In this document: positions 61,105 through 62,823 of the stretch, piece by piece
Layout of the letters: the number at the start of each line of letters is the position of its first letter
How positions within the stretch are numbered: position 1 is the stretch's first letter
Assembly (NCBI RefSeq): GCF_003334355.1
Contig: NZ_QOWP01000004.1
Reading direction: 5' to 3' (one strand)
DNA: 64,000 nt
DNA from: Escherichia coli
Lineage (GTDB): Bacteria; Pseudomonadota; Gammaproteobacteria; Enterobacterales; Enterobacteriaceae
Notes under the pieces: generated by a model
Seen by the model: the letters and a program-made list of their open reading frames with translations, nothing else
Told to the model about the DNA's origin: nothing
The model's database searches: none
Position numbers and translations under genes: made by a program

Positions 61105-62823
61105 TTAACCCTGCAGCAGAGACAGAACCTGCTGCGGTACCTGGTTAGCTTTTGCCAGCACGGAGTTACCTGCCTGCTGAATAATCTGCGCTTTCGACAT
61201 GTTGGACACTTCGGTCGCATAGTCGGCGTCCTGAATACGGGACTGCGCTTCGGACAGGTTGGTAGTGGTGTTGTTCAGGTTGGTGACTGCGGAATCCAGA
61301 CGGTTCTGGATAGCACCCAAGGATGAACGGAACTTGTCGATCTGGCTGATTGCGTCATCCAGAGCGGCCAGCGGATCGGTGGTGGTTGCGGCTTTGGTTG
61401 CAGCGTCGGTAGTGAAATCACCATCCGCTTCTACATAGACCGCTTTACCTGAACCGTTGGTTACAGAGCCATCTTTCTGCAGATACAGTTTAGTGGTGTT
61501 ATCAGTAGTCAGTGTACCGTCAGTGTTGGTGTAAGAATCTTTGTTGCCAGAAGTCGCAACATCATATGCCTGAACACTCCCATCAGTACCTACAGAGATA
61601 TAACCAGCTGTGTCTGCTGTACCAACAGTGAAACCAGTCGTTTTGCTTGCAGATTGCAGAGCAGCTGAACTAATTACAGCGCCTGTAACAGCAATCGTAC
61701 CTTCAGTACCATTGCTTGAACCATTCAGTACAATCGAAGTGTTATCAGCTGTAGTAATTGTGGATTTAACAGCCGCTGCACCATTATTGTTGTTCAGAGC
61801 TAAACCACTCAGAGTCGCTTCCGCGAGTGTTCCAACACCGTTATTACCACCATTCTGAGTTAAGTTACCAGTTGTATCAATGTAAAGCTTAGAGCCATCC
61901 TTAGCAGTGAGTTTGCCATCACTGGACAGCACGACGTCTTGTGTAGTACCACCAATTTCAACACTGAATGTTGCAGTGTCGCCCGCTTTCGGAGTCAGGT
62001 AAGACTGCAGCTCAGCTGTCGTAGCAGTCGTGTCATAAGTAAATGTATTATTATCTTTGTTAAGTTTATAGGCATTGGAAGTGGCTCCTGCAGCAAAGCC
62101 ATTTTTCACGCCTGTGGCTGTAATAGTCGTACCATCAGCGAGGCTAGACAGTACATCTGCGGCTGTAGTTTTAGTCAGCCCAGCACTTACTGTGTAAGCA
62201 ATGGCACCTGTAGAATCTGCTGCCCCAGGGGTACCAATTGCAGCAGCAGCCAAATCAGCTTTAGTCGCCGCAGTATTCGCCACAGAACCAGAACCATTCA
62301 CGTTAAAACCAGTCAGTTTCAACGTAGAAGAGTCAATCTTCTTCAGGTCGATAGTGATGGTCTGGCCATCATTCGCGCCAACCTGAATTTTCATCGAACC
62401 GTCTTTTGCCAGTACGTTCACGCCGTTGAACTGAGTCTGACCAGATACGCGGTCAATTTCGTCCAAACGGGATTTGATTTCGTCCTGGATAGAGTCCAGA
62501 TCAGACTGGGAGTTGGTACCGGTGGTCGCCTGAACGGTCAGTTCACGCACACGCTGTAAGTTGTTGTTGATTTCGGACAGCGCGCCTTCAGTGGTCTGTG
62601 CAACAGAAATACCGTCATTGGCGTTACGTGCAGCCTGAGTCAGGCCTTTAATGTTAGAAGTAAAACGGTTAGCAATCGCCTGACCCGCTGCGTCATCCTT
62701 CGCGCTGTTAATACGCAAGCCAGAAGACAGACGCTCGATAGAACTCGACAGCGCAGACTGGTTCTTGTTGATATTATTTTGAGTGATCAGCGAGAGGCTG
62801 TTGGTATTAATGACTTGTGCCAT
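61105..62823 (-). CDS. fliC: Flagellin FliC, 572-aa allele (not the 498-aa K-12 H48 type)
   Basis: Conserved N-terminus MAQVINTNSLSLITQNNINKNQSALSSSIERLSSGLRINSAKDDAAGQAIANRFT and C-terminus ...QVPQQVLSLLQG with long Thr/Ser/Gly-rich hypervariable central domain. Confidence 0.95.
   Translation of the reverse strand: MAQVINTNSLSLITQNNINKNQSALSSSIERLSSGLRINSAKDDAAGQAIANRFTSNIKGLTQAARNANDGISVAQTTEGALSEINNNLQRVRELTVQATTGTNSQSDLDSIQDEIKSRLDEIDRVSGQTQFNGVNVLAKDGSMKIQVGANDGQTITIDLKKIDSSTLKLTGFNVNGSGSVANTAATKADLAAAAIGTPGAADSTGAIAYTVSAGLTKTTAADVLSSLADGTTITATGVKNGFAAGATSNAYKLNKDNNTFTYDTTATTAELQSYLTPKAGDTATFSVEIGGTTQDVVLSSDGKLTAKDGSKLYIDTTGNLTQNGGNNGVGTLAEATLSGLALNNNNGAAAVKSTITTADNTSIVLNGSSNGTEGTIAVTGAVISSAALQSASKTTGFTVGTADTAGYISVGTDGSVQAYDVATSGNKDSYTNTDGTLTTDNTTKLYLQKDGSVTNGSGKAVYVEADGDFTTDAATKAATTTDPLAALDDAISQIDKFRSSLGAIQNRLDSAVTNLNNTTTNLSEAQSRIQDADYATEVSNMSKAQIIQQAGNSVLAKANQVPQQVLSLLQG

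What the first reader, a model, noticed from the sequence alone, without database searches (positions are those of the whole stretch)
61105..62823. fliC is a 572-aa flagellin allele, so the source strain is not K-12
The conserved D0/D1 termini flank a long Thr/Ser/Gly/Ala-rich central domain, and the length differs from the 498-aa K-12 H48 flagellin. The central region determines H serotype and is a known hotspot of recombination; I cannot assign the H type from memory.
Basis: partly seen in the sequence, partly recalled or inferred. Interest (0 to 1): 0.3.

Follow-up and report, generated by a model that had tools for sequence, protein, structure and literature searches.

The report
Ordinary H20 flagellin gene, not K-12
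This is an intact, ordinary E. coli flagellin gene (fliC) of the already catalogued H20 antigen type, which shows the DNA is not from the K-12 laboratory strain but is otherwise unremarkable.

Summary
Window 61105-62823 (minus strand) is an intact 572-aa fliC. It lies between fliA and fliD and has its own sigma-28 promoter and terminator. The two proteins are 100% identical over residues 1-100 and 98.6% over 501-572, but only about 20-25% identical across residues 171-470. Nucleotide homology is lost between window 61384 and 62332. The central domain occurs full length in 56 of 5,426 complete E. coli genomes, as a single cluster at 96.1-100% identity. It is 100% identical to strain T16R, published as H20:O159-ST48, and 98.0% identical to strain MIN6, published as -:H20. 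No other H type matches it over its length. The exact protein is RefSeq WP_087899677.1. ATCC 8739 (Crooks) differs by one residue. The window differs from strain PSS-12 by 9 SNPs in 50 kb. Strain ST540 has near-identical flanks but an unrelated fliC centre, which shows allele replacement at this locus. The outer domain is 38% identical to the sheath-forming EPEC H6 flagellin and is unrelated to the K-12 type. Verdict: already known, low interest.

The parts
61105..62823 (-). fliC coding sequence, 572 aa plus stop; H20 genotype; identical to RefSeq WP_087899677.1
   Evidence: ORF list and sequence. NCBIfam NF005953 771 bits, above the 619 cut-off. 100% DNA identity to fliC of PSS-12, ET896, LR-27 and HCP6S3_I2. 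Exact protein found in the public collection on 175 contigs.
62404..62811 (-). Flagellin_N (PF00669), residues 5-140: D0/D1 N-terminal helices
   Evidence: Pfam i-E 4.8e-46. Residues 1-100 are 100% identical to K-12.
61384..62332 (-). Variable central cassette (about codons 164-480) encoding the surface-exposed outer domains, which carry the H-antigen determinant
   Evidence: blastn homology to K-12 ends at 61383 and resumes at 62333. GC is 46.3% against 50.3% for the whole window. 54% T/S/G/A. Found full length in only 56 of 5,426 genomes, as one cluster.
61396..61797 (-). Pfam FliC domain (PF12445), residues 343-476, in the distal part of the outer region
   Evidence: Pfam i-E 2.1e-28.
61114..61368 (-). 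Flagellin_C (PF00700), residues 486-570: D1/D0 C-terminal helices
   Evidence: Pfam i-E 1.1e-31. Residues 501-572 are 98.6% identical to K-12.
62900..62926 (-). Sigma-28 (FliA) class-3 promoter of fliC: TAAAGGTTGTTTTACGACAGACGATAA
   Evidence: Match to TAAA-N15-GNCGATAA; 3 matches in the window against 0.02 expected. The 62801-62900 bin is 100% and the 62901-63000 bin 98% identical to K-12.
60914..60930 (-). Intrinsic terminator hairpin at the end of the fliC 3'UTR (7 G-C pairs followed by a T run)
   Evidence: Terminator scan. Conserved in K-12 and MIN6.
60908..61101 (-). fliC 3'UTR equivalent to the K-12 small RNA FliX (b4827); contains two REP-like elements
   Evidence: About 95% identity to the annotated K-12 FliX stretch. 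Sub-threshold Rfam hits to REP-derived families naRNA4 and ES036.

Best explanation
The feature is the intact chromosomal flagellin gene fliC of an E. coli strain that is not K-12, and it carries the H20 allele. FliA (sigma-28) transcribes it as a class-3 flagellar gene from the promoter at 62926-62900, and transcription ends at the hairpin at 60930-60914. The conserved N- and C-terminal helices (D0/D1) drive export, FliS binding, polymerisation into the filament core and TLR5 recognition. The non-conserved central 949 nt encode the outer domains on the filament surface, which carry the H antigen. The allele sits in a conserved fliA-fliC-fliD frame in which the central cassette is swapped between lineages by homologous recombination anchored in the conserved ends. 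Shown here: gene identity, intactness, length, domain layout, non-identity with K-12, membership of the cluster typed H20, and cassette replacement between near-identical backgrounds. Inferred from established flagellin biology: expression, assembly and antigenicity.
For: The ORF is intact at 572 aa. It matches FliC/FljB NF005953 at 771 bits, above the 619 cut-off, and has Pfam Flagellin_N, FliC and Flagellin_C domains. Gene order dcyD-tcyJ-fliZ-fliA-fliC / fliD is the same as in K-12. The sigma-28 promoter and the terminator are present. K-12 fliC is 498 aa; the termini are 98.6-100% identical and the centre about 20-25%. The central domain is 100% identical to T16R, published as H20:O159-ST48 (PMC12115866), and 98.0% identical to MIN6, published as -:H20 and named 'E. 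coli H20' in RefSeq (PMC8703133). All 56 full-length carriers form one cluster at 96.1-100% identity with no conflicting serotype name, and the next-best alleles cover only 14% of the domain. ATCC 8739 (O146) differs by one residue, and a preprint lists O146:H20 among strains sharing a defence island that ATCC 8739 also carries (indirect). Strain ST540 has flanks 99-100% identical but a fliC centre only about 45% identical at nucleotide level.
Against: The H20 call is indirect. It rests on identity to strains that others typed in silico. I did not compare against the H20 type-strain reference or use antiserum. Expression and motility cannot be read from sequence. The rest of the source genome was not available, so I could not exclude a second, non-fliC flagellin locus. 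None lies in the window, and PSS-12 has only one megablast-detectable flagellin locus.
Confidence: 0.93

Rival explanations
1. The gene is the K-12 H48 allele or a trivial variant of it, so the strain could be K-12.
For: The termini and flanks are 96-100% identical to K-12, and both appear to share the same chromosomal frame.
Against: The lengths are 572 and 498 aa. No nucleotide homology exists across window 61384-62332, and central protein identity is about 20-25% with 10-33 gap columns per block. The flanks differ from PSS-12 by 9 SNPs in 50 kb but are only about 98% identical to K-12.
Confidence: 0
2. The allele belongs to the H20 sequence cluster but is serologically a different or untyped H antigen, because its 572-aa sub-allele differs from other H20 alleles in the outer domain.
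For: All 11 residue differences from MIN6 lie in the surface region, residues 344-431, and include indels beside an Asn run. Length variants of 572, 573, 574, 576 and 578 aa exist within the cluster. The E. coli W paper lists the H antigen of ATCC 8739 as 'ND'.
Against: Central-domain identity to typed H20 strains is 98-100%, far inside the usual in-silico typing thresholds. No other H type resembles the domain.
Confidence: 0.05
3. fliC is present but is not what the cell displays: the strain is non-motile, or it expresses a flagellin from another locus (flkA, fllA, flmA or flnA type) that represses fliC.
For: Such systems are known in E. coli (PMC3378880, listed). The rest of the source genome was not seen.
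Against: fliC, its promoter, fliA, fliZ, the start of fliD and, in near-identical PSS-12, flhDC, motAB, the che genes and flhBAE all carry no pseudogene flags. No second flagellin lies in the window. There is one flagellin place per genome in PSS-12.
Confidence: 0.07

Closest known systems
E. coli fliC-H20 alleles (T16R H20:O159-ST48; MIN6 -:H20; ATCC 8739 / Crooks WP_000079747.1)
   Same: The central domain is 100% identical to T16R, differs from ATCC 8739 by one residue (N371D), and is 98.1% identical to MIN6 over the whole protein. The chromosomal position is the same.
   Different: Nothing of substance. This is the 572-aa length variant, found in about 19 of the 56 carriers among complete genomes. 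The commonest variant is 576 aa.
E. coli K-12 FliC (H48; b1923; filament structure PDB 8CXM, 498 aa)
   Same: Same locus, promoter and 3'UTR. The D0/D1 termini are 98.6-100% identical.
   Different: The window protein is 74 aa longer and has a non-homologous outer-domain cassette. PMC8931119 reports that K-12 outer domains are Salmonella-like and show no significant homology to H6 or H7. The window protein's centre does match H6.
EPEC O127:H6 flagellin (PDB 7SN7 / 7SQJ), an outer-domain-sheath flagellin
   Same: It is the best solved-structure match: full length E 1.5e-176; central domain alone E 2e-17, with 38% identity over 270 aligned residues. This implies homologous D2-D4 outer domains.
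   Different: It is a different H type (546-548 aa) with only 38% outer-domain identity. Whether H20 outer domains dimerise or tetramerise into a sheath is untested.

Membership tests
FliC/FljB flagellin (NCBIfam NF005953; Pfam PF00669 + PF00700) | Whole-protein score above the curated cut-off | tested here: met
   771 bits against a cut-off of 619; full-length match 1-572 to profile positions 1-548.
FliC/FljB flagellin (NCBIfam NF005953; Pfam PF00669 + PF00700) | N-terminal and C-terminal helical flagellin domains flanking a variable insert | tested here: met
   Flagellin_N at 5-140 (4.8e-46) and Flagellin_C at 486-570 (1.1e-31).
FliC/FljB flagellin (NCBIfam NF005953; Pfam PF00669 + PF00700) | Chromosomal fliC position: between fliA and divergent fliD, with a sigma-28 promoter | tested here: met
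   Gene order. Promoter TAAA-N15-GACGATAA at 62900-62926 on the minus strand.
FliC/FljB flagellin (NCBIfam NF005953; Pfam PF00669 + PF00700) | Polymerises into a flagellar filament | not testable with these tools
   Needs motility assays or electron microscopy.
E. coli H20 flagellar antigen type (fliC-H20 genotype) | Central-domain sequence matches strains typed H20 and no other H type | tested here: met
   100% identical to T16R (H20:O159, PMC12115866) and 98.0% to MIN6 (-:H20, PMC8703133). The 56 carriers form a single cluster, and other alleles cover at most 14% of the domain.
E. coli H20 flagellar antigen type (fliC-H20 genotype) | Match to the H20 type-strain reference sequence in a typing database | not tested
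   No typing database or reference sequence was reachable, and Wang et al. 2003 (PMC154406) is not held.
E. coli H20 flagellar antigen type (fliC-H20 genotype) | Agglutination with H20 antiserum | not testable with these tools
   Requires a serological experiment.
K-12 H48 flagellin | 498-aa protein with the H48 central domain | tested here: not met
   572 vs 498 aa. The centre is about 20-25% identical, and no nucleotide homology exists over 61384-62332.
Outer-domain-sheath (ODS) flagellins (EHEC H7, EPEC H6, Achromobacter; PMC8931119) | Outer-domain sequence homology to a solved ODS flagellin | tested here: met
   Central domain against 7SN7/7SQJ (H6): E 2e-17, 38% identity over 270 aa. H7 (7SN4) matched only in the full-length search.
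Outer-domain-sheath (ODS) flagellins (EHEC H7, EPEC H6, Achromobacter; PMC8931119) | Three outer domains (D2-D4) that dimerise or tetramerise into a sheath | not tested
   No structure prediction was run. Sheath formation itself needs cryo-EM.

The most novel reading that the evidence does not exclude
The H20 filament, like its 38%-identical relative H6, may build an outer-domain sheath through up/down pairing of D2-D4 domains. If so, strains such as ATCC 8739 (Crooks) and this one would swim with the prolonged-tumble behaviour described for sheathed filaments, unlike K-12. That would extend the sheath class to a commensal phylogroup-A laboratory strain.
Probability: 0.35. Interest if true: 0.3.

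Novelty: already known. Interest (0 to 1): 0.07.

Why it matters
The main use is provenance. The allele shows the window comes from an H20 E. coli closely related to PSS-12 and sharing its fliC region with ATCC 8739 (Crooks), not from K-12. It also gives a clean local example of fliC cassette exchange between otherwise near-identical chromosomes. It adds no new biology: the exact protein is already in RefSeq and occurs on 175 public contigs.

Tried and rejected
- The primary H-antigen sequence paper (Wang et al. 2003, PMC154406) is not held, so I could not compare against type-strain references or published lengths.
- The E. coli W genome paper lists the ATCC 8739 H antigen as 'ND'. Other papers give only O146.
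- The defence-island preprint mentions both ATCC 8739 and O146:H20, but it has no held supplement to link them directly.
- Serotype strings containing a colon cannot be searched.
- No paper on PSS-12 was found.
- The cluster look-up gave only generic names, 'FliC/FljB family flagellin'.
- My first sigma-28 pattern had one N too many and found nothing. The corrected pattern found the promoters.
- The sigma-70 promoter scan found nothing above chance, as expected for a sigma-28 gene.
- I considered the large protein-database searches and AlphaFold and decided against them. The outer-domain class already follows from 38% identity to a solved structure, and the finding is ordinary.

Full report
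**Observation.**
The ORF listing and raw sequence show one long ORF on the minus strand, from ATG at 62823 to a TAA ending at 61105. It is 1719 nt, or 572 codons plus the stop. The protein scores 771 bits against NCBIfam NF005953 'FliC/FljB family flagellin' (cut-off 619). Pfam finds Flagellin_N at residues 5-140, Flagellin_C at 486-570 and a FliC domain (PF12445) at 343-476. The central region (171-470) is 54.0% Thr+Ser+Gly+Ala, against 35.3% and 39.2% in the termini. The protein has no Cys, Trp or His. The description is therefore accurate.

**Context.**
- The neighbours are dcyD, tcyJ (fliY), fliZ and fliA downstream on the same strand, and fliD divergently upstream. This is the same order as in K-12 MG1655.
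- A sigma-28 consensus (TAAA-N15-GNCGATAA) occurs three times in the 64-kb window, against 0.02 expected by chance. The sites are 62900-62926 (-) in front of fliC, 63019-63045 (+) in front of fliD, and 32494-32520 (-) in front of tar.
- The fliC 3'UTR ends in a strong hairpin with a T run at 60930-60914.
- The 3'UTR is about 95% identical to the stretch that K-12 annotates as the small RNA FliX, and it carries two REP-like elements.
- The gene therefore looks like a complete, normally wired class-3 flagellar transcription unit. Expression itself is inferred, not shown.

**Comparison with K-12.**
PDB 8CXM also holds a 498-aa flagellin.
- Protein identity to K-12 is 100% for residues 1-100, 88.6% for 101-170, about 20-25% with many gaps for 171-470, 60% for 471-500 and 98.6% for 501-572.
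- At nucleotide level, blastn homology to K-12 runs up to window 61383 and resumes at 62333. The flanks are 96-100% identical.
- The non-homologous cassette is therefore window 61384-62332, about codons 164-480. Its GC content is 46.3%, against 50.3% for the window.
- The conserved 5' part of the gene next to the cassette is more diverged from K-12 (90-93% at 62401-62700) than the surrounding genes. This fits recombination end-points inside the conserved arms.

**H type.**
- The full gene is 100% identical to fliC in four complete genomes (ET896, PSS-12, LR-27, HCP6S3_I2). It is 99.8-99.9% identical in fourteen further records, including the three ATCC 8739 assemblies.
- The central domain alone (window 61414-62316) is found full length in 56 of 5,426 complete genomes. 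These form a single cluster at 96.1-100% identity, and the next-best alleles cover only 14% of the query.
- Strain T16R has a central domain 100% identical to the window and is published as H20:O159-ST48 (PMC12115866).
- Strain MIN6 is 98.0% identical in the centre, is published as -:H20, and is named 'Escherichia coli H20' in RefSeq (PMC8703133).
- No cluster member carries a conflicting serotype name.
- A preprint lists O146:H20 among non-pathogenic strains sharing a defence island that ATCC 8739 (O146) also carries. This is consistent but indirect.
- I therefore assign the genotype fliC-H20. The assignment rests on published in-silico typings of identical or near-identical alleles. I could not compare against the H20 type-strain reference and could not use antiserum.
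- Within the cluster, gene and central-domain lengths imply variants of 572, 573, 574, 576 and 578 aa. The 11 residue differences from MIN6 all lie in residues 344-431, beside an Asn run.

**Source strain.**
- Window 14001-64000 differs from PSS-12 (NZ_AP027697.1; human faeces, Ecuador) by 9 scattered SNPs in 50 kb. The source is a very close relative of PSS-12, and not necessarily PSS-12 itself.
- ATCC 8739 is identical over 57601-64000 except for one nucleotide (FliC N371D), but it is patchier further out.
- The exact protein is RefSeq WP_087899677.1, seen on 175 public contigs.

**Recombination.**
Strain ST540 (NZ_CP007391.1) has flanks 99-100% identical to the window. Its fliC is a different 570-aa allele: 61.6% protein identity overall and about 45% nucleotide identity in the centre. 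Conversely, the same H20 cassette sits in strains of different sequence type and O group: ST48/O159, ST1120/O146, and MIN6, which its paper lists as both ST533 and ST553.

**How it works.**
From established flagellin biology, the conserved termini form the D0/D1 coiled-coil core. That core mediates type-III export, FliS binding, polymerisation under the FliD cap and TLR5 recognition. The central insert folds into surface domains that carry the H epitope. The closest solved structures are the EPEC O127:H6 filament, 7SQJ and 7SN7 (full length E 1.5e-176 and 3e-175). For the central domain alone the match is E 2e-17, with 38% identity over 270 aligned residues. PMC8931119 identifies those entries. 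It reports that the H6 and H7 D2-D4 domains form an outer-domain sheath. It also reports that K-12 H48 outer domains are Salmonella-like, with no significant homology to H6 or H7. The H20 flagellin therefore probably differs from K-12's in outer-domain fold class as well as in sequence. Whether it forms a sheath is untested.

**Verdict.**
This is an already known allele of a textbook gene. It is useful for provenance and is not novel.

Noticed in passing
window 60908-61101 (-): The fliC 3'UTR is about 95% identical to the K-12 small RNA FliX (b4827). It contains two REP-like elements that give sub-threshold Rfam hits: naRNA4 at 60943-60993 (-), 41.9 bits against a gathering score of 59.5, and ES036 at 60999-61040 (+), 34.7 against 37.6. 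The differences from K-12 cluster at alignment columns 154-160.
   Followed up: partly
window 63019-63045 (+) and 32494-32520 (-): Two further exact sigma-28 consensus sites were found: the divergent fliD promoter and a site just upstream of tar. Three sites in the window compare with 0.02 expected by chance.
   Followed up: partly
window 14001-64000 vs L003 (PSS-12): The window differs from PSS-12 by only 9 SNPs in 50 kb, all between 15738 and 43068. The source is a near-clone of this Ecuadorian human faecal isolate but not an exact match to it.
   Followed up: yes
L004 8179-9891 (strain ST540, NZ_CP007391.1): This strain has flanks 99-100% identical to the window but carries an unrelated 570-aa fliC (61.6% aa identity). 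It is a clean example of fliC cassette replacement. I did not determine its H type.
   Followed up: partly
window 62401-62700: The conserved 5' arm of fliC is 90-93% identical to K-12, while neighbouring genes are 98-100% identical. This suggests the recombination tract end-points lie inside the conserved D1-coding region.
   Followed up: no
window 61705-61794 (FliC residues 344-373): Length variation within the H20 cluster (572, 573, 574, 576 and 578 aa) maps next to an Asn run (LNNNNG), and all substitutions relative to MIN6 fall in residues 344-431. This may be a small indel-prone surface loop.
   Followed up: partly
L002 895-1304 (MIN6): In the H20 strain MIN6, the flagellin chaperone gene fliS is annotated as frameshifted, so that strain may export flagellin poorly.
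   Followed up: no
window 57490-58572 and 59469-60056 (-): The mechanical ORFs for dcyD (360 aa) and fliZ (195 aa) are longer than the annotated genes (987 nt, 328 aa; 552 nt, 183 aa) because they start at upstream in-frame ATGs. This is an ORF-calling artefact, not a real difference.
   Followed up: yes
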